Positions 1 through 15,859 of a stretch of 18,585 nucleotides of DNA are shown piece after piece (positions within the stretch are counted from its first letter, which is position 1; each line of letters opens with the position of its first letter). The stretch comes from Sandaracinaceae bacterium (GTDB lineage: Bacteria > Myxococcota_A > Polyangia > Polyangiales > Sandaracinaceae), in assembly GCA_044220955.1 (NCBI GenBank), contig JBGAQA010000015.1, positions 87,194 through 105,778 of the forward strand, in the 5' to 3' direction. A program made the translations under genes and the position numbers. Below the pieces are notes generated by a model that was not told the DNA's origin, made no database searches, and saw only the letters and a list, made by a program, of their open reading frames with translations.

Positions 1-1913
<1,913 letters not shown>

Positions 1914-7673: not shown

Positions 7674-8888
7674 TCAGGCGGCCGCGAAAGGCCCCACGAA
7701 GGGCTCGAGCCGCGCCGACGGCACGGGCACCGCGCGGCGCTCGCTGTCCCGGCCGGGCCGGGTCGGACGGGAGGGGACCGCGCTCGGGCGCGTCACCGCC
7801 CCTCCGAGCCAGGCGACGAGGTCGTCGACGATGGCCGCCGCCGCCTCGGGTCGGCCGTTCTCGCGCGCTGCGCGAGCCATCGCGGCCCGCCGGCGCTCGT
7901 CGCCGAGCAGCCCCCGGAGCGTCTCGCCCAGCGCCTGCTCGTCGAGGTCGGCATCGCGCACCATCACCGCCGCCCCCGCGCGCTGGAGCGCCTCGGCGTT
8001 CTTCGTCTGGTGGTCGTCGGCCGCGTGGGGGTACGGCACGAGCACGGCGGGCCGACCGATCGCGCAGATCTCGGCGAGCGTGGTGGCGCCGGCCCGCGCC
8101 ACGACGAGCTGGGCACTGGCGTACGCGCGCGCCATGTCGTCGATGAAGGGCACCACCTCGGCGCGAACACCCAGCTCCGCGTAGCGCGCCCTCACGGCTT
8201 CCAGCATCGCGGCGCCCGTCTGGTGGACCACCTCGAGCCCGGCGACGCCCGAGCGCGCGAGCGCGCCCGGCAGGACCTCGTTCACGTGCTGCGCGCCCTG
8301 CGAGCCGCCGACGACGAGCACCTTGCGCGCGCGGGCCTCGAAGCCCGACGGGTCGGCCTGCGCCATCCTCGCCGCCTCGACGAACGCGCGACGCACGGGG
8401 TTGCCCACCACGCGCGCCTTGTCGCCGAAGATCGTGCGCGTCTCCTCGAAGGTCACGTACGCGCGGCCGACGATCGGCGCGAGGATCCGGTTCGTCATGC
8501 CGACGTGCGCGTTCTGCTCGAGCAGCGCCACGCGGATCCCGAGCGTGCGCGCCGCGATGAGCATGGGACCCGAGGCGTACCCACCGACGCCGAGCACGAC
8601 GTCGGGACGCGCGGCGCGCAGGATCGACACGCAGCGCGCGTACGCGCCGGGCAAGCGCATCAAGCTCGCGATCAGCTCCCCGGCGCTCCGCCCCTTCAGC
8701 GGCGTGACGTCGAGCAGCTCGAGCTTCTCGCTCGCCTTCGGTAGCACGCGCGCCTCGATGCCCTTGGGCGTGCCGACGAAGGTCACCTCGAGCGGCGACA
8801 CACGCCGCCTCAGCTCCTCGACCACGGCCATGCCCGGGAAGAGGTGACCGCCCGTCCCTCCGCCCGCGATCAGTACGCGCTCGATCAT
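7674..8888 (-). CDS. murG: UDP-GlcNAc:lipid I N-acetylglucosaminyltransferase
   Basis: IAGGGTGGHLFPG, GVGGYASGP, EQNA, GNPVR, VVGGSQGA, HQTG, ARAGATT, DDHQTKNA; about 40-aa Pro/Arg-rich C-terminal tail. Confidence 0.98.
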   Translation of the reverse strand: MIERVLIAGGGTGGHLFPGMAVVEELRRRVSPLEVTFVGTPKGIEARVLPKASEKLELLDVTPLKGRSAGELIASLMRLPGAYARCVSILRAARPDVVLGVGGYASGPMLIAARTLGIRVALLEQNAHVGMTNRILAPIVGRAYVTFEETRTIFGDKARVVGNPVRRAFVEAARMAQADPSGFEARARKVLVVGGSQGAQHVNEVLPGALARSGVAGLEVVHQTGAAMLEAVRARYAELGVRAEVVPFIDDMARAYASAQLVVARAGATTLAEICAIGRPAVLVPYPHAADDHQTKNAEALQRAGAAVMVRDADLDEQALGETLRGLLGDERRRAAMARAARENGRPEAAAAIVDDLVAWLGGAVTRPSAVPSRPTRPGRDSERRAVPVPSARLEPFVGPFAAA

Positions 8889-9061
8889 GACCCACCCAAT
8901 TGCGTCGGCTCGCCGCTCCGGCCCCTACCGTCCGCGGGCACGGCTGGAGGCGTCCGCCCGGCGGACGCGACGCAATTGTGTCGGCCCGCCTTCGGCGGGC
9001 ACTCCAGCCTTCCGCCCGCTCCCGTCCGGGTCCTCCGGACGAGCACTCCTGCCTTCTTCAT
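8885..9061 (-). other. Structured intergenic element with a 58-aa bridging mini-ORF (MKKAGVLV...EPTQLGGS)
   Basis: ATG overlaps the ftsW stop (TGATG) behind GGGAGG; TGA overlaps the murG start (ATGA). Contains a four-way-junction fold at 8942-9009 and is homologous to 12805-12882. Confidence 0.7.
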
Positions 9062-10350
9062 CACGAACCTCCCACGGCCTCGCCGACCGCCGCCGGACCT
9101 CTCGGATCCGGCTGCGCGTCGATCGCCCTCGGCGCGCGTGGCTTCTGCGAGACTGCTCTCGACTGCCCCGGTTCTTCGGCCTTGCGCGCCTCGCCGCGAG
9201 GCGAGGGCACGCACTGCCGGGAGACGTTGAGGATCACCCCGATCGCCGCCGCATCGACGACGAGCGCGGAGCCCCCGTAAGAAAGGAACGGAAGCACGAG
9301 CCCCTTGGTGGGCAGAAGGCCCATCGCCACCGCGAGGTTCGTGAAGGCAGAGAGGCCGAGGAGCAGCGTCGCTCCGGCGGCGAGGTAGGTGCCGTACTCG
9401 TCGGGCGCGTTCCACGCGATGCGCAGGCCGCGCACGACCAGGATCGCGAAGGCGCCCGTGACGATCACCATGCCGACGAAGCCGAGCTCCTCGCCGATGA
9501 TCGCGCTGATGAAGTCGGTGTGCGCCTCGGGGAGGAAGAAGAGCTTCTGCCGGCTGTCGCCGATGCCGACGCCGCCGAGCCCTCCGGAGCCGAACGCGAG
9601 CATCGACTCGACGATCTGGTAGCCGCTCCCGGCGCGATGCGCGAACGGATCGAGGAAGGCCTCGATGCGCGCGCGCCGCCAGGGCGAGAGCGCGATCGCC
9701 GCGCCGGCGGCGAGCGCGAGGCCGAGCACCGTGCCCAGGATCGGCCCGAGGCGTGCGCCGGCGAGGAAGAGCATGAGGAACGTGACCAGGCCGATCATCA
9801 CGGCGCTGCCGAGATCCGGCTGGATGATGCAGAAGAGCGCGAAGAGGCTCATCACGATCAGGTGGGGCAGCACGCCGATCTTGAAGGTCCGCATCTGCTC
9901 GGCCTTCTTCGAGAGCGAGTACGCGAGGAACAGGACGATCGTCAGCTTGGCGACCTCGGCGGCCTGGATGTCGACCGGGCCGATACGGATCCACCGCGTC
10001 GCGCCGCCTGCGGTCCGGCCGACGAGCATCGTCGCGACGAAGAGCACGAGCGTCGCGGCCACCGCCGGGTACGTCAGGGGGCGCAGGCGGTGGTAGTCGA
10101 CGCGCGAGACGCCGAGCATCGTGACGAGCCCCACGAGCGCGAACACGGCCTGGCGCACGAGGAACCGGTGCCCGTCGTGGTACGTCTGCGACGCGAACAC
10201 GGCGCTCGCCGAGAACACCATCACGACGCCGAACGCCATCAGCGCCATCGCGAGCCCGACGAGCACCGGATCGACCGGACCGAGCGGCGCCCGCACGGGA
10301 GCCGGCGCCGGCGGCACCGTGGAGCGGCGGAGGAACGACAGGACGCTCAT
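9061..10350 (-). CDS. ftsW: SEDS peptidoglycan polymerase FtsW
   Basis: Own ATG at 10350 with GGAGG 9 nt upstream (10360-10364). Motifs GVVMVFSAS, GGATRWIRIG, QAAEVAKL, QPDLGS, GYQIVES, LPEAHTDFI, GEELG, LPTKGLVLPFLSYGGS; 429 aa. Confidence 0.95.
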   Translation of the reverse strand: MSVLSFLRRSTVPPAPAPVRAPLGPVDPVLVGLAMALMAFGVVMVFSASAVFASQTYHDGHRFLVRQAVFALVGLVTMLGVSRVDYHRLRPLTYPAVAATLVLFVATMLVGRTAGGATRWIRIGPVDIQAAEVAKLTIVLFLAYSLSKKAEQMRTFKIGVLPHLIVMSLFALFCIIQPDLGSAVMIGLVTFLMLFLAGARLGPILGTVLGLALAAGAAIALSPWRRARIEAFLDPFAHRAGSGYQIVESMLAFGSGGLGGVGIGDSRQKLFFLPEAHTDFISAIIGEELGFVGMVIVTGAFAILVVRGLRIAWNAPDEYGTYLAAGATLLLGLSAFTNLAVAMGLLPTKGLVLPFLSYGGSALVVDAAAIGVILNVSRQCVPSPRGEARKAEEPGQSRAVSQKPRAPRAIDAQPDPRGPAAVGEAVGGS

Positions 10351-10379
10351 GACGACGGGCCTCCGGACGATCGGATCAT
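10347..10379 (-). other. 10-aa bridging mini-ORF MIRSSGGPSS between the inferred native murD stop and ftsW
   Basis: ATG ATC CGA TCG TCC GGA GGC CCG TCG TCA TGA, with ATGA overlaps at both ends. Shares TCGTCCGGAGG with the ftsW/murG spacer. Confidence 0.5.
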
Positions 10380-11649
10380 CGCGCACCTCGCGACTCGGGG
10401 AGCGCACGCACCGCGCGCGCGCCTTGGCGGCGGCGTCGTCGATCGTCGTCGCGTCGATCAGGGGGAGCAGAGACCCCTCGAACGCGCGCCGGATGATGGG
10501 CGTGGCCTCGCCGATCAGCACGATCGCGCGCCCGGCCCTCTCCATCCGCTCGCGCATCGGGCCGTACGAGCCCTGCTTGTCCACGCCGCCGGCGACCAGC
10601 ACGACCTTGCCCGGCAGGTCGGCCAGACCATCGAGCGCCGCGCACGTCGCGCCCACGTTCGTGGCCTTGCTGTCGTCGTAGTACGCGACCCCGTCGAGGT
10701 CGCGCACGTGCACCATGCGGTGCGGCAGGCCCGCGAACGCGCGCAGGACCCGGGCGATCACGTCCTTCTCGACGCCGACCAGGCGCGCCGCGAGCGCGGC
10801 CGCACACGCGTTCGACTGGTTGTGCAGGCCCCGGATCTTCAGCTCCGCCACCGGGACGCGCAGGCCCGAGACGCGATCCTCGAGGACCCCGTCGACCACG
10901 CGGACCTCGCCCTCCGCTCCCCAGAACGTGTGGGCGTGGCCGGCGCCGGCCCGCGCGAGCGAGAGGCAGAGCGCGTCGCCCTCGGGGACGAGCGCGTGAT
11001 CGGCCCGCTGCTGCGGATGGAAGATGCGCCCCTTCGCGGCGGCGTAGGACGCGAAGCTGCCGTGACGGTCGAGGTGGTCGTCCGTGACGTTGAGGAGCAG
11101 GGCCACGTTGCAGCGGAGCGACTCGATGTCCTCGAGCTGGAAGCTGGAGAGCTCCGCCACCACGAGGCCGTCGGGCCCCGCGGCCGGCGAGAACGCGGCG
11201 TTGGAGAGCGCATCGCCGAGGTTGCCGCCGACGAAGGTCGGCCGGCCGCTCGCCGCGCACATGTCGCCGACGAGGGTGGTCACGGTGCTCTTGCCGTTCG
11301 AGCCGGTGACGCCGACGAGCGTGCCCCGCAGCGACCAGCTCGCGAGCTCGACCTCGGGGACGACCGGAACGAACCTGGCGCGCGCGGCCTCGACGGCCGG
11401 CAACCGCGGTACGCCGGGGGAGAGCACGACGAGGTCGGCCGCCGTGAAGAGCGCCTCGGGGTGTCCCCCGAGCGAGACGTCGGCCCCGAGCGCGCGCGCC
11501 TCCGCCACCGCGCCGCCGAGCTCGGCCTCGGTCTTCTTGTCGTTGATCGTGACGCGCGCACCCTCGCGGATCGCGAGCCGCGCCGCCGCGAGGCCGCTCT
11601 TGCCCAGGCCCACGATCACCACGCGCGCGTCCTTCAGCGGGATGGCCAT
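10376..11649 (-). CDS. murD: UDP-MurNAc-L-Ala:D-Glu ligase, with a frameshifting deletion near the 3' end (~10412-10422)
   Basis: VVIVGLGKSG, VLSPGVP, GVTGSNGKSTVT, GGNLG, AELSSFQLE, LNVTDDHLDRH, GLHNQSN, GLPHRM, DDSKATNV, AGGVDK. The conserved C-terminal LSPAxxSFD motif is absent, and a plausible native end AVRALPESRGAR* sits in another frame ending at 10376. Confidence 0.92.
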
Positions 11650-11653
11650 GGCG

Positions 11654-12808
11654 TCACCGCAGCTTCAGCGTCGCGAGGCTCGCGAGCGCCAGCATGATGG
11701 AGATGATCCAGAAGCGGACGATGACCTTCGGCTCGGGCCAGCCGCGCTTCTCGAAGTGGTGGTGGATCGGCGCCATCAGGAAGATGCGCTTGCCGAAGAG
11801 CCGGAAGCTCGCCACCTGGGCGATGACGCTGACCCCCTCGACGACGAAGATGCCGCCGAGCAGGATGCTCAGGAGCTCGTTCTTCGTGAGCACGGCGAGC
11901 ATCCCGATGCCGCCGCCGAGCGCGAGCGCGCCCACGTCGCCCATGAAGACCTGCGCGGGGTAGGTGTTGTACCAGAGGAATCCGAACCCGGCGCCGAGGA
12001 TGGCGCCGCAGAACACGCTGAGCTCCGAGGCACTGCCGAGGGCCGGGATGCGCAGGTACTCGGCGACCGACGCGCCGAAGAGCACGAGGCCCGTCATGTA
12101 CGCGAGCACCGCGTACACGCCGGCGTTGATCATCACGGGGCCGATCGCGAGGCCGTCGAGCCCGTCGGTGAGGTTCACGCAGTTGCTCGTCGCGACGAGC
12201 ACGATCGAGGCGAAGATCACGTAGAGCCAGGGGGGCAGCACGGCGGCGTAGTGCGCCGGCGTCAGGACGTCCGGGTAGTGCTCGGCGCGGAACGCGACGA
12301 AGGGGACGGCGAGGTGGTTCCGCAGCGCGATCCAGTCGTGGCCGAGGCCCGCCTGCCCGTACCAGAGGTAGCCGCAGACCGCGAACGCCACGCTGAACTG
12401 GATCAGGAGCTTGTAGCGACCGGCGAGCCCGCCCGTGTCCTTCTTGGTGATCTTGAGGGCGTCGTCGACATAGCCGACGACCCCGTAGGCGACCGTGACG
12501 AGCAGCGTCAGCCACACGCTCGTCGACGTCGGGTCGGCCCACGCGACGGTCGAGACGACGAGCGCGAAGAGGATCAGGGCCCCGCCCATCGTGGGCGTGC
12601 CCGCCTTGCTGAGGTGCGACGCGGGCCCCTCCTTGCGCACGACCTGTCCGACCTGCCGCCGCTGCAGTCGCCGGATGAACCAGGGATAGAGGCCGAACGT
12701 CACGGCCATGGCCGTGAGCGTCGCGGCGAGCACACGGAACGGCACGTAGCGCAGCACGTTGAGGAAGTTCAGGCGCGGCGCGTACGGGTAGAGGAGCGCG
12801 TAGATCAT
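11654..12808 (-). CDS. mraY: Phospho-MurNAc-pentapeptide translocase
   Basis: KAGTPTMGG, GYVDDALK, SNCVNLTDGLDGLA, FLWYNTYPAQVFMGDVG, MAPIHHHFE, EPKVIVRFWII, TLKLR. Confidence 0.98.
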   Translation of the reverse strand: MIYALLYPYAPRLNFLNVLRYVPFRVLAATLTAMAVTFGLYPWFIRRLQRRQVGQVVRKEGPASHLSKAGTPTMGGALILFALVVSTVAWADPTSTSVWLTLLVTVAYGVVGYVDDALKITKKDTGGLAGRYKLLIQFSVAFAVCGYLWYGQAGLGHDWIALRNHLAVPFVAFRAEHYPDVLTPAHYAAVLPPWLYVIFASIVLVATSNCVNLTDGLDGLAIGPVMINAGVYAVLAYMTGLVLFGASVAEYLRIPALGSASELSVFCGAILGAGFGFLWYNTYPAQVFMGDVGALALGGGIGMLAVLTKNELLSILLGGIFVVEGVSVIAQVASFRLFGKRIFLMAPIHHHFEKRGWPEPKVIVRFWIISIMLALASLATLKLR

Positions 12809-12906
12809 CGGCTCGCCCCTCCGCGCCCTTCCGTCCGCGCGCGCCGCGCGCTCCCATCCGGACGCAAAGGAGCGAGCTCTCCCGTCGTGAGCCGCGCGTC
12901 GATCAT
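12805..12906 (-). other. Intergenic repeat element with a 33-aa bridging mini-ORF (MIDARLTTGELAPLRPDGSARRARTEGRGGASR)
   Basis: ATG 2 nt after the murF TAG, behind AAAGAGG; TGA overlaps the mraY ATG. Flanked by a 14/15-nt direct repeat. 31/37 nt identical to part of the ftsW/murG spacer. Confidence 0.7.
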
Positions 12907-12908
12907 CG

Positions 12909-14381
12909 CTACGCGGCCTCTTTCCGGGCCACGAGGGCCTCGACCACGCGCTCCATGCGCATGCCGCGCGAGCCCTTCACCACGACGACGTCGCCCTCGA
13001 TGAGGAAGCGGTCGACCTCGCAGACGGCGTCCATCGGATCGTCGACCTCGATCACGAGGTCGGCGCCCATCTCGCGCGCCTCTTGCGCGGCCGCGCGCAT
13101 GCGCCGGCCGCAGGCGACGAAGAGCGAGACGCCCGCGAGCGCGACGTGCTCGCCGACCAGCGCGTGCAGCTCGGTCTCGAGCGCGCCGAGCTCGAGCATG
13201 TCGCCCAGCACCGCCACCAGCCGCCCGTTGGTGGTGCGCGCGATCTCGGTCGCGGTGTCGATCGCGTTGATCACCGAGCGCGGCGAGGCGTTGTACGAGT
13301 CGTCGACGATCACCGTGCCCCCCGGGCCCGCGAGCGGACAGAGCCGACCCGGCTCGGGACGCAGGAACCTCAGCGCCTCGGCGGCCGGCTCGAGACCGTC
13401 CAGCCCCCGCGTCGCGAGGGCCAGCGCGAGCGCAGCGCCCGCGTTCTTGGCGGCGCCGGCCCCGAGCAGCGCGAGCTCGACCACGAGGTCGGAGGCGCGC
13501 CCGTCGATCCGGTAGGTGACGCGCTGGCCCGAGGCCGCGGCGCTTCGCGACACCAGCCGCACGGCGGCGTCGACGTCTCGCCCGAACCCGAGCTTTCGGC
13601 GCGCGCGCGAGCCCGCCACGTAGGGCCCGAGGCGCGGCTCGTCGGCGTCGTAGATCGCCGTGCCCGTCTCGGGGAGCGAGGTCAGCAGCGCCCCCTTCTC
13701 CCGCGCGACGCCGTCGATCGAGCCGACTCCCTCGGTGTGGACCGCCGCGACGCTCGTCACGATCCCCACGTCCGGCCGCGCGATCGCGCAGAGCTTCGCG
13801 ATCTCGCCGGGCACGTTCATGCCCATCTCCACGACCGCGAAGGTCGTGCGCGCCGGATCGATCGTGAGCAGCGTGCGCGGTACGCCGACGAGGTTGTTGA
13901 GGTTGCCCTCGGTGGCGACGACGACGTCGCGCCACGGCGGGGCGCGGAGGACCGCAGCGCACATCTCCTTGGTGCTCGTCTTGCCGACCGATCCGGTGAT
14001 CCCCACCAGGGCGGCGAGACCGCCGCCCCCAGGGCCGCCCGGGCGCGCCCGCTCGCGCGCGAACGTGCCGAGGCGTCCGAGCGCGGCGAGCGTGTCCTCG
14101 ACGAGGACCACGCCGACGGCCTGCGGCACCGCGACCTCGCGGCTCACCACGACGATGCCCGCCCCGCGCACCACGACGTCGGCGACGAACTCGTGCGCAT
14201 CGCGCTTCTCGCCGACGAGCGCGACGAACACGTCGCCGACGTACACCTCGCGCGAGTCCGTGCAGACGCAGCGAGGAGCGGCGCTCGAACGCCCCGCCTG
14301 CACGACGGTGCCACCGACGATGCCCGCGAGCGCCTCGGCGTCGCGGAGAGAGACGCTGTTTCTCGGCAGTGGTGTCGCCAT
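12909..14381 (-). CDS. murF: UDP-MurNAc-tripeptide:D-Ala-D-Ala ligase
   Basis: ATG at 14381 overlaps the murE stop (TGATG). Motifs TDSREV, DVFVALVGEKRDAHEF, GITGSVGKTSTKE, GNLNNLVGVP, VEMGMN, HTEG, DDSYNASP, LGDMLELG, VKGSRGMRME; 490 aa. Confidence 0.97.
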   Translation of the reverse strand: MATPLPRNSVSLRDAEALAGIVGGTVVQAGRSSAAPRCVCTDSREVYVGDVFVALVGEKRDAHEFVADVVVRGAGIVVVSREVAVPQAVGVVLVEDTLAALGRLGTFARERARPGGPGGGGLAALVGITGSVGKTSTKEMCAAVLRAPPWRDVVVATEGNLNNLVGVPRTLLTIDPARTTFAVVEMGMNVPGEIAKLCAIARPDVGIVTSVAAVHTEGVGSIDGVAREKGALLTSLPETGTAIYDADEPRLGPYVAGSRARRKLGFGRDVDAAVRLVSRSAAASGQRVTYRIDGRASDLVVELALLGAGAAKNAGAALALALATRGLDGLEPAAEALRFLRPEPGRLCPLAGPGGTVIVDDSYNASPRSVINAIDTATEIARTTNGRLVAVLGDMLELGALETELHALVGEHVALAGVSLFVACGRRMRAAAQEAREMGADLVIEVDDPMDAVCEVDRFLIEGDVVVVKGSRGMRMERVVEALVARKEAA

Positions 14382-15859
14382 CAGCTCGCCCCCCCGGCTG
14401 CGCGCGCGATCGCCGCGCGCGCCTCCTCGCGATCGTCGAAGTGGATCTTGGTCGTCCCGAGGATCTGGTAGTCCTCGTGACCCTTGCCGGCGATGAGCAC
14501 CGTGTCCCCCGCTCGCGCGCGCGAGAGCGCGAGGCCGATGGCCGCACGCCGGTCCACCTCCACCAGCGACTCCTTCGCGGAGCCGACGCCGGGCAGGATC
14601 ATGTCGACGATCGACCGCGGATCCTCCGTCCGCGGATTGTCGCTCGTCACGATGCACACGTCGGCACGCCTCGCCGCGGCCTCGCCCATGAGCGGCCGCT
14701 TCGCGCGGTCACGATCGCCGCCGCAGCCGAACACGACGAAGAGCCGCCCCGGCGTGATCGGCCGCAGCGCATCCAGCGCCTTCGCGACCGCGTCGGGCGT
14801 GTGCGCGTAGTCGACGAACACGGCGACGTCCCGCGGGTCGTCGACCCGCTCGAGCCGGCCGGGCGCGCCCCGGACCTCGGAGAGGGCGGCTTCGATCTCG
14901 CGCGCGCTCGCCCCGATCGCGCGCAGGATCCCGGCGGCGAGCAGCAGGTTGTCGAGGTTGTGCGCGCCGACCATCGGGCTCGTCAGGGCCATCGGCGGCT
15001 GGCCTTCCTGCGCGATCGAGGCCCGCAGCCCCGCGCGCGACATCGTCCACTCGGTCACGCGGAGCCCGGCGTCGGGGCTCGTCCGGCCGACGGTGAGCAC
15101 GCGCGTGACGCCGCGGTCGATCCGCGCGGCGATCGCGGCGCCCGCCGGATCGTCGACGTTGATCACGGCGTTCCTCGGCCGCAGGGCGACGAAGAGCCGC
15201 TCCTTGGCCTGCCGGTAGGCGTCCATCGTGCCGTGGAAGTCGAGGTGATCCTGCGTGAGGTTCGTGAACGCGGCGACCTCGAACCGGATCCCGTCCGCCC
15301 GGAAGAGCGCGAGCGCGTGGCTCGAGACCTCCATCACGAAGTGCGTCGCGCCGGCCTGGACCATGCGGTCGGCGAAGCGCGCGAGGTCGTCCGCCTCCGG
15401 CGTCGTGAACGCGCTCGGCGCGCTGAACCCCGGACCGCGCGTCTCGACCGTCCCGACGAGCGCGGGCCGCGCGCCCCGCGCTCGCAGCGCCTCGTCGACG
15501 ATCCAGGTGGTGGTCGTCTTGCCGTTCGTGCCCGTCACGCCGATCGACGTCAGGCGCGCCGTCGGATCGCCGTGGACGGCGTGTGCCGCGAGCGCGAGCG
15601 CCCGGCGCGCGTCGTCGACGCGGAGCGTCGGGACGGCGACGTCGAGGTCCGCCTCGGCGGCGACCGCGGCCGCGCCGCGCGCGATCGCGTCCGCCACGAA
15701 CCTCGCACCGTCGAGCTTCTCGCCCGGGATCGCGACGAAGAGGTCCCCCGGCACGACCTGCCGGGAGTCGTGGCGCACGTCGCGCACGAGGGTGGAGCCG
15801 TCTCCCCGCAGGGAGCGCGCGATCCCGCGCTCCACGAGCGCGCCGAGGGCGAGCGTCAC
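14381..15859 (-). CDS. murE: UDP-MurNAc-L-Ala-D-Glu:meso-diaminopimelate ligase
   Basis: DSRQVVPGDLFVAIPG, GVTGTNGKTTT, TTPEA, MEVSSHAL, FTNLTQDHLDFH, VDYAHTPD, FGCGGDRD, TSDNPR (the DNPR motif typical of mDAP-adding enzymes), AGKGHEDYQ. Confidence 0.98.
   Translation of the reverse strand: MTLALGALVERGIARSLRGDGSTLVRDVRHDSRQVVPGDLFVAIPGEKLDGARFVADAIARGAAAVAAEADLDVAVPTLRVDDARRALALAAHAVHGDPTARLTSIGVTGTNGKTTTTWIVDEALRARGARPALVGTVETRGPGFSAPSAFTTPEADDLARFADRMVQAGATHFVMEVSSHALALFRADGIRFEVAAFTNLTQDHLDFHGTMDAYRQAKERLFVALRPRNAVINVDDPAGAAIAARIDRGVTRVLTVGRTSPDAGLRVTEWTMSRAGLRASIAQEGQPPMALTSPMVGAHNLDNLLLAAGILRAIGASAREIEAALSEVRGAPGRLERVDDPRDVAVFVDYAHTPDAVAKALDALRPITPGRLFVVFGCGGDRDRAKRPLMGEAAARRADVCIVTSDNPRTEDPRSIVDMILPGVGSAKESLVEVDRRAAIGLALSRARAGDTVLIAGKGHEDYQILGTTKIHFDDREEARAAIARAAGGAS

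What the first reader, a model, noticed from the sequence alone, without database searches (positions are those of the whole stretch)
8885..12908. Related spacer elements that bridge dcw genes with stop-to-start mini-ORFs (candidate coupling-preserving repeat family)
Seen: five dcw junctions are tight (rsmH/ftsL ATGA, ftsL/ftsI ATGA, ftsI/murE GTGA, murE/murF TGATG, mraY/murD 4 nt). The three with a real spacer each hold an ORF that begins on or 2 nt after the upstream stop and terminates by ATGA overlap on the next start: 12906-12805 (33 aa), 10379-10347 (10 aa), 9061-8885 (58 aa). The spacers share sequence, and deleting each from its ATG to the next gene's ATG would restore a direct junction. 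Inference: a small non-autonomous repeat (REP/MITE-like) that targets or duplicates start/stop overlaps and stays harmless in an essential operon by relaying ribosomes across itself. I cannot assign it to a named family from the sequence alone.
Basis: partly seen in the sequence, partly recalled or inferred. Interest (0 to 1): 0.85.

Follow-up and report, generated by a model that had tools for sequence, protein, structure and literature searches.

The report
MIRU-like hairpin repeat at dcw junctions
Two spacers in this cell-wall operon are copies of a small mobile hairpin repeat that usually lands right after stop codons; where it lands between overlapping genes it mostly keeps a tiny reading frame that could pass ribosomes on, a layout already described for unrelated mycobacterial repeats.

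Summary
Two of the three spacers (murF/mraY, ftsW/murG) are copies of a ~90-nt hairpin repeat with 72 loci in this genome and copies in 6 of 25 relatives. Both junctions are plain overlaps in most relatives. The third (murD/ftsW) is not a detectable member; its mini-ORF is coupled only after allowing for ~97 nt missing from the assembled murD. Copies sit at upstream stop codons (42 of 50). Stop-to-start relay ORFs are enriched (11 of 31 vs 52 of 777 control spacers). One junction was filled independently in the opposite orientation in a relative and kept the relay. But relays are a minority: 19 of 72 loci lie between convergent genes and some are in-frame inserts in genes. At sites overlapping in G000, only 4 of 7 inserts in relatives keep a link. 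Best reading: a non-autonomous repeat whose insertions are filtered by selection for coupling. This is the MIRU layout (PMC12548453) in a new sequence family; the scan noted it in at least 13 other genomes. No mobilising enzyme found; translation untested.

The parts
12909..14384 (-). murF; TAG stop 2 nt before the S1 mini-ORF
12805..12906 (-). S1 mini-ORF, 33 aa, ends by ATGA overlap on mraY; insert unit 98 nt (2 mod 3)
12894..12906 (-). left copy of the mraY 5' end (13 nt, one mismatch to 12808-12796): target-like duplication that supplies the mini-ORF start
12809..12893 (-). family A hairpin repeat; its 3' arm holds the SD-like GGAGG of mraY, predicted fully paired
11654..12808 (-). mraY
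10376..11649 (-). murD; true stop inferred at 10378-10376
10413..10418 (.). site of about 97 nt missing from the assembly (GC dinucleotide run); removes the conserved MurD C-terminal motif and makes a false murD-ftsW fusion
   Evidence: table 8 (X2 record 11; breaks in X1, X3, X9)
10347..10379 (-). S2: 29-nt insert between two ATGA, 10-aa mini-ORF; not a detectable family A member; origin unresolved
9061..10350 (-). ftsW
8885..9061 (-). S3 mini-ORF, 58 aa, from the TGATG overlap on ftsW to the ATGA overlap on murG; insert unit 173 nt (2 mod 3)
9014..9056 (-). family A repeat, 5' half
8937..9013 (-). family B: related palindromic doublet nested in the central loop of the family A copy (21 BLAST rows in the genome, some palindromes listed twice; nested the same way at C266)
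   Evidence: table 5, 52
8898..8941 (-). family A repeat, 3' half
7674..8888 (-). murG

Best explanation
S1 and S3 are insertions of a lineage-restricted, non-autonomous ~90-nt hairpin repeat (family A; S3 also holds a nested family B doublet). Shown: the repeat is dispersed and often tandem, sits immediately 3' of native stop codons, often with a short variable direct duplication, and is absent from orthologous junctions in relatives. Inferred: at an RTGA stop/start overlap the duplication puts a start on the upstream stop and rebuilds the downstream start. The GC-rich, stop-poor body is read through, and a unit of 2 mod 3 ends on the downstream start. Inserts that break the phase in coupled operons such as dcw tend to be purged, as are out-of-frame inserts in genes. 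Inferred and untested: terminating ribosomes re-initiate on the mini-ORF, unwind the hairpin that hides the mraY SD, and re-initiate on the next gene. The peptides are by-products. S2 is a separate 29-nt insert that passed the same filter.
For: 82 nhmmer hits, 0 in the reversed genome = 72 loci. Compensatory pairs in the hairpin. Empty -4/-1 junctions in relatives. 42 of 50 sense-upstream loci have the stop within -1..+9 nt of the element start; 61 of 68 in four other genomes. Flank duplication of 7 nt or more in 32% of 56 copies vs 10% for mismatched pairs. Relay 11 of 31 vs 52 of 777 (p 7e-6); given an overlapping start, 7 of 12 vs 22 of 188 (p 3e-4). Five genomes: relay or N-terminal extension in 18 of 23 sense copies vs 71 of 188 G000 controls (p 3e-4); non-coupling phase 2 of 23 vs 12 of 33 without a start (p 0.03). 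The C290 junction holds the repeat in the opposite orientation in G004, and the next junction an unrelated repeat, both in relay phase. G005 murF/mraY has three tandem units, each ATGA to ATGA. In-frame +93 and +66 nt inserts in genes. mraY SD region unpaired probability 0.00 vs 0.12-0.53 at three empty sites (prediction).
Against: Unbiased empty-site test: 4 of 7 keep a link vs 3 of 17 at non-overlap sites, p 0.13 (0.02 if one borderline locus is moved). Copies without an overlapping start also lean to the relay phase (22 of 48, p 0.05), so part of the phase signal may come from element length. 5 of 13 antisense copies with an overlapping start dead-end. Genes come from my own caller, which misplaces some starts; 66 of 234 loci were dropped as unclear. 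Two of the 11 non-G000 cases are orthologous to G000 loci. The loci were picked because they were relay or in-gene cases in G000. No enzyme and no translation data.
Confidence: 0.7

Rival explanations
1. Neutral by-product: the relay arises from RTGA duplication plus a stop-poor body and a typical unit length, is never used, and downstream genes initiate on the SD carried by the element or the host.
For: No-start copies also lean to the relay phase (22 of 48). The element 3' end carries a GGAGG-like motif 9 nt before the mraY ATG. 3 of 7 inserts at G000-overlapping sites have no link.
Against: Unit lengths vary over all three phases. Opposite-orientation and unrelated-repeat inserts at the same sites are also in phase. 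The non-coupling phase is depleted only where a start overlaps the stop.
Confidence: 0.17
2. Purpose-built coupling element: it targets start/stop overlaps and has evolved to relay ribosomes.
For: Tight placement at stops, above the share expected from TGA sites alone (42 of 66 vs 40%, p 1e-4). Relay enrichment. Stop-poor core on both strands.
Against: Only 2 of 42 stops at G000 copies are ATGA and 21 are CTGA, close to genome-wide use. 19 of 72 loci are convergent. Relay frames and strands differ between copies.
Confidence: 0.08
3. Domesticated REP-like 3' structure (mRNA stabiliser or terminator-like), kept for its hairpin; the mini-ORFs are incidental.
For: Position just after stops; convergent pairs are 19 of 63 classed intergenic loci vs 217 of 1892 spacers; conserved pairing.
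Against: Presence at a junction varies within one genus, and G003 shows only 4 matches (81% complete). It does not explain the phase bias.
Confidence: 0.05

Closest known systems
MIRUs, mycobacterial interspersed repetitive units (Supply et al. 1997, seen only as summarised in a passage of PMC12548453)
   Same: Short repeats that appear mobile and insert at start codons so that an internal ORF is coupled to the gene by a -4 overlap, thought to keep insertion harmless. Tandem arrays occur here too (tandem MIRU-VNTR arrays are recalled, not from a call).
   Different: Host is Sandaracinaceae-like. Most copies are anchored at stops without any coupling. Both orientations give relays. In-frame intragenic copies and nested family B occur. 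Sequence likeness to MIRU was not tested.
REP / BIME palindromes, GTAG and CGTC superfamilies (PMC3733652, abstract and four passages)
   Same: Abundant palindromic repeats next to stop codons, in pairs or clusters, sometimes inside ORFs.
   Different: The unit is ~90 nt, not 20-40. The stop is the host's own rather than supplied by the repeat. Flanking duplications occur. No consistent Y1 transposase partner.
Bacterial MITEs and in-frame coding repeats such as Rickettsia palindromic elements (recalled, no call)
   Same: Non-autonomous, structured, with direct duplications, tolerated in frame inside genes.
   Different: No fixed-length duplication, and no clear terminal inverted repeats for family A; no parent IS found.

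Membership tests
MIRU (works-like) | short dispersed repeat, many copies | tested here: met
   72 loci in G000; 4 to at least 150 matches in six relatives
MIRU (works-like) | appears mobile: empty orthologous sites | tested here: met
MIRU (works-like) | internal ORF coupled to the downstream gene with -4 spacing | tested here: met
   S1, S3 and 11 of 31 element spacers in G000; a minority of all copies
MIRU (works-like) | inserts at start codons as a rule | tested here: not met
   anchored at stop codons (42 of 50); 19 of 72 loci are convergent, with no start downstream
MIRU (membership) | mycobacterial host and MIRU sequence | tested here: inconclusive
   host not met: exact-pattern matches only in five MAG records labelled Sandaracinaceae, Sandaracinus, Polyangiaceae or Myxococcota; direct sequence comparison with MIRU not done
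MIRU (works-like) | ribosomes actually relay across the ORF | not testable with these tools
   no RNA holder listed
REP (GTAG/CGTC) | 20-40 bp palindrome | tested here: not met
   model length 93-95
REP (GTAG/CGTC) | GTAG or CGTC tag at one end | tested here: inconclusive
   neither tag at the ends of the family A consensus, judged by eye; no formal scan
REP/RAYT system | cognate Y1 (RAYT) transposase flanked by the repeat | tested here: not met
   2 weak hits in G000, not beside a listed copy; 1 of 17 Y1 loci in relatives has a copy nearby; none in complete G007, which has at least 150 matches
MITE | fixed-length target duplication and terminal inverted repeats | tested here: inconclusive
   duplications in excess of the null but 4-15 nt and variable; family B is a palindromic doublet
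Rfam families | match at the gathering score | tested here: not met
   one chance-level hit, E 0.7, outside the spacers

The most novel reading that the evidence does not exclude
A transposase-less repeat is inserted by a host or reverse-transcriptase route that is steered to terminating stop codons (placement exceeds TGA availability, duplications vary in length, and a complete genome with at least 150 matches has no Y1 transposase hit). Where it lands in an overlap, its SD-hiding hairpin turns a passive overlap into an obligatory relay that retunes or locks translation of essential genes such as mraY.
Probability: 0.12. Interest if true: 0.75.

Novelty: new member of a known kind. Interest (0 to 1): 0.4.

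Why it matters
It extends the MIRU layout to a Myxococcota family and supplies natural replicates: the same junction empty, filled, filled in reverse, filled in tandem, or filled by another repeat. These make selection for translational coupling testable in essential operons. It also warns annotators: the repeat creates false small ORFs and N-terminal extensions, and the murD-ftsW fusion in this assembly is very probably false.

Tried and rejected
S2 as a truncated family A copy: 33% of 250 control spacers score as high; S2 as a duplication of the murD 3' end: 36% of shuffles score as high. A real MurD-FtsW fusion: rejected. A conserved peptide: frames and strands differ between copies. Rfam: nothing. 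RAYT partner: not supported. Four RVT_1 hits in G000 were listed but not examined. The class-wide model search found 0 of 150 other genomes, with stricter filters and 28 candidates scored per genome. No RNA holder listed, which is no evidence either way. Literature searches: MIRU+DTGA, Sandaracinus+repetitive extragenic palindromic (57) and Myxococcota+MITE+intergenic repeat (68) gave no papers; some searches listed papers I did not open. A second passage search in PMC12548453 returned no text and was not repeated. No supplements were read, and Supply et al. 1997 was not seen. Scan look-ups by place and by sequence gave nothing relevant.
Full report
Observation. The window holds a minus-strand dcw cluster: ftsL, ftsI, murE, murF, mraY, murD, ftsW, murG. 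S1 (murF/mraY) and S3 (ftsW/murG) share 35 nt at 86% (E 3e-8). S2 (murD/ftsW) shares nothing significant. In the window murD reads in frame into ftsW (862 aa) and lacks the C-terminal motif seen in the relatives printed. A contig from run X2 matches both sides of 10413-10418 with about 97 extra nt. Listed contigs of X1, X3 and X9 stop or restart there, and none of the 32 listed pieces spans the joint intact; 2317 more were not shown. Adding 97 nt moves murD into the frame that ends at TGA 10378-10376, overlapping the S2 ATG. The fusion is very probably an assembly error, and S2 is a 29-nt insert between two ATGA.

The repeat. BLAST with S1 gave 58 seeds. An HMM found 82 hits at E<=0.01 and none in the reversed genome, merging to 72 loci at E<=1e-3. 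The ~90-nt unit has an outer stem and a central hairpin with compensatory changes: 5 of 22 pairs, 0 of 500 shuffles reaching the covariation score, though relatedness inflates this. There is no Rfam match. S3 carries a related palindromic doublet (family B) in the central loop, as does the copy at C266. The covariance model hits 7 of 26 genomes: all six of the genus and G007 of another genus. It hits 0 of 150 other genomes drawn from the class. An exact pattern hit 50 loci in five named MAG records labelled Sandaracinaceae, Sandaracinus, Polyangiaceae or Myxococcota.

Where it sits. With my own gene caller (6467 genes, 92% coding) the 72 loci are 29 codirectional sense, 19 convergent, 9 codirectional antisense, 6 divergent, 6 inside genes and 3 at contig edges. 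In 42 of 50 loci with a sense upstream gene the stop lies within -1..+9 nt of the element start; in four other genomes 61 of 68. This exceeds the 40% share of stops among intergenic TGA sites (42 of 66, p 1e-4). Empty sites show that the stop is the host's own. Flank duplications of 7 nt or more occur in 32% of 56 copies vs 10% in mismatched pairs, with variable length. The stop context is close to genome-wide use: CTGA 21, GTGA 13, TTGA 5, ATGA 2, GTAG 1. Overlaps are therefore not the main target.

The dcw junctions in relatives (15 genomes fetched, G009 and most other-family genomes not). murF/mraY is a -4 or -1 overlap in 13 and filled in G002 and G005; G005 has three tandem units, each running ATGA to ATGA. 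ftsW/murG carries the repeat only in G000. A MurD+FtsW tree puts G000 next to G003, which is empty, with G002+G005 as sister. S1 is thus either one gain with precise loss in G003 or two gains; a shared substitution in the duplicated mraY start favours shared ancestry (inference). In run X9 one low-depth contig reads the S3 left boundary as an exact copy of the right one, which would make a 7-nt duplication of the empty site; it may be an error.

Is the relay more than chance? In G000, 11 of 31 element-bearing codirectional spacers of 80-260 nt carry a stop-to-start ORF vs 52 of 777 controls (p 7e-6; strict overlaps 9 of 31 vs 35 of 777). Given an overlapping start, 7 of 12 vs 22 of 188. I then classed 234 loci from five genomes by flank frame alone; for the four relatives these were the best-scoring part of their matches, and 66 loci were dropped as unclear. 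Of 23 sense copies with a start on the upstream stop, 13 relay, 5 extend the next gene's N-terminus and 5 fail. The non-coupling phase holds 2 of 23 vs 12 of 33 without a start (p 0.03). Antisense copies: 8 of 13 relay. At C290, G004 has the repeat in reverse at one junction and an unrelated repeat at the next, both in relay phase. At C210, G002 and G005 relay in a different frame from G000. Two intragenic copies are +93 and +66 nt in frame (these six loci were chosen from G000 results). Against: in the unbiased test, 27 of 59 loci had an orthologous pair in G000. At 7 sites overlapping in G000, 4 kept a link and 3 did not, vs 3 of 17 elsewhere (p 0.13; 0.02 with one borderline locus moved). 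No-start copies also lean to the relay phase (22 of 48, p 0.05). Kin are not independent, and start calls are imperfect.

Mechanism. Shown: dispersal, empty sites, stop anchoring, duplications, and phase bias at overlap sites. Inferred: duplicating RTGA gives a start on the upstream stop and a rebuilt downstream start; the stop-poor body is read through; a length of 2 mod 3 (98, 173 and 29 nt here) closes the relay; selection removes most other outcomes in coupled operons. The mraY SD is predicted fully paired in the S1 stem (0.00 unpaired vs 0.12-0.53 at three empty sites), so translating the mini-ORF would be needed to open it. murG shows no such effect (0.60 vs 0.41-0.62). The mobilising enzyme is unknown: Y1 transposases do not track the repeat.

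Comparison. A review (PMC12548453, passage seen) describes MIRUs as mobile repeats that insert at start codons with an internal ORF coupled at -4, likely minimising harm. This family works like MIRU at a minority of sites, but has another host and is anchored at stops. It fails the REP length criterion (PMC3733652 passages). My searches found no paper on this family. The scan has noted the same layout in at least 13 other genomes (unchecked notes read after I had reached this reading).

Verdict. A real repeat family, new in sequence as far as these searches reach, of a known kind. Coupling is best read as a filter on where copies survive. Interest 0.4.

Noticed in passing
window 10413-10418: About 97 nt are missing from the assembly, giving a false 862-aa MurD-FtsW fusion.
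   Followed up: yes
G000:C246:16312-16392 and G000:C268:7583-7669: Family A copies inserted in frame inside protein-coding genes (+93 and +66 nt vs relatives); four further in-gene calls were not checked.
   Followed up: partly
L068 (G004:C6, junction orthologous to G000:C290:122343): A different palindromic repeat fills the junction and also forms a stop-to-start ORF; G001 and G003 have a 5-nt duplication there giving a two-codon relay.
   Followed up: partly
G003: Only 4 model matches, and empty at sites filled in G000, G002 and G005: possible lineage-wide loss, or an effect of an 81%-complete assembly.
   Followed up: no
L027 (G002 murF/mraY junction): Family A with nested family B runs into mraY, whose usual first codons seem missing and out of frame: misassembly or real damage.
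   Followed up: no
G000:C77:64182-64868: A Y1_Tnp (RAYT-like) gene flanked by its own inverted repeat, unlike families A and B, by eye.
   Followed up: partly
L360 (G002:C222): One family A copy lies within about 100 nt of a Y1_Tnp match, the only case among 17 loci.
   Followed up: no
G000:C239:31835 and G000:C229:43034: Copies lie next to tRNA-like sequences, by eye; not run through ARAGORN.
   Followed up: no
window 105-1913 (+): Lon-protease-like ORF, named by eye from the translation; not scanned.
   Followed up: no
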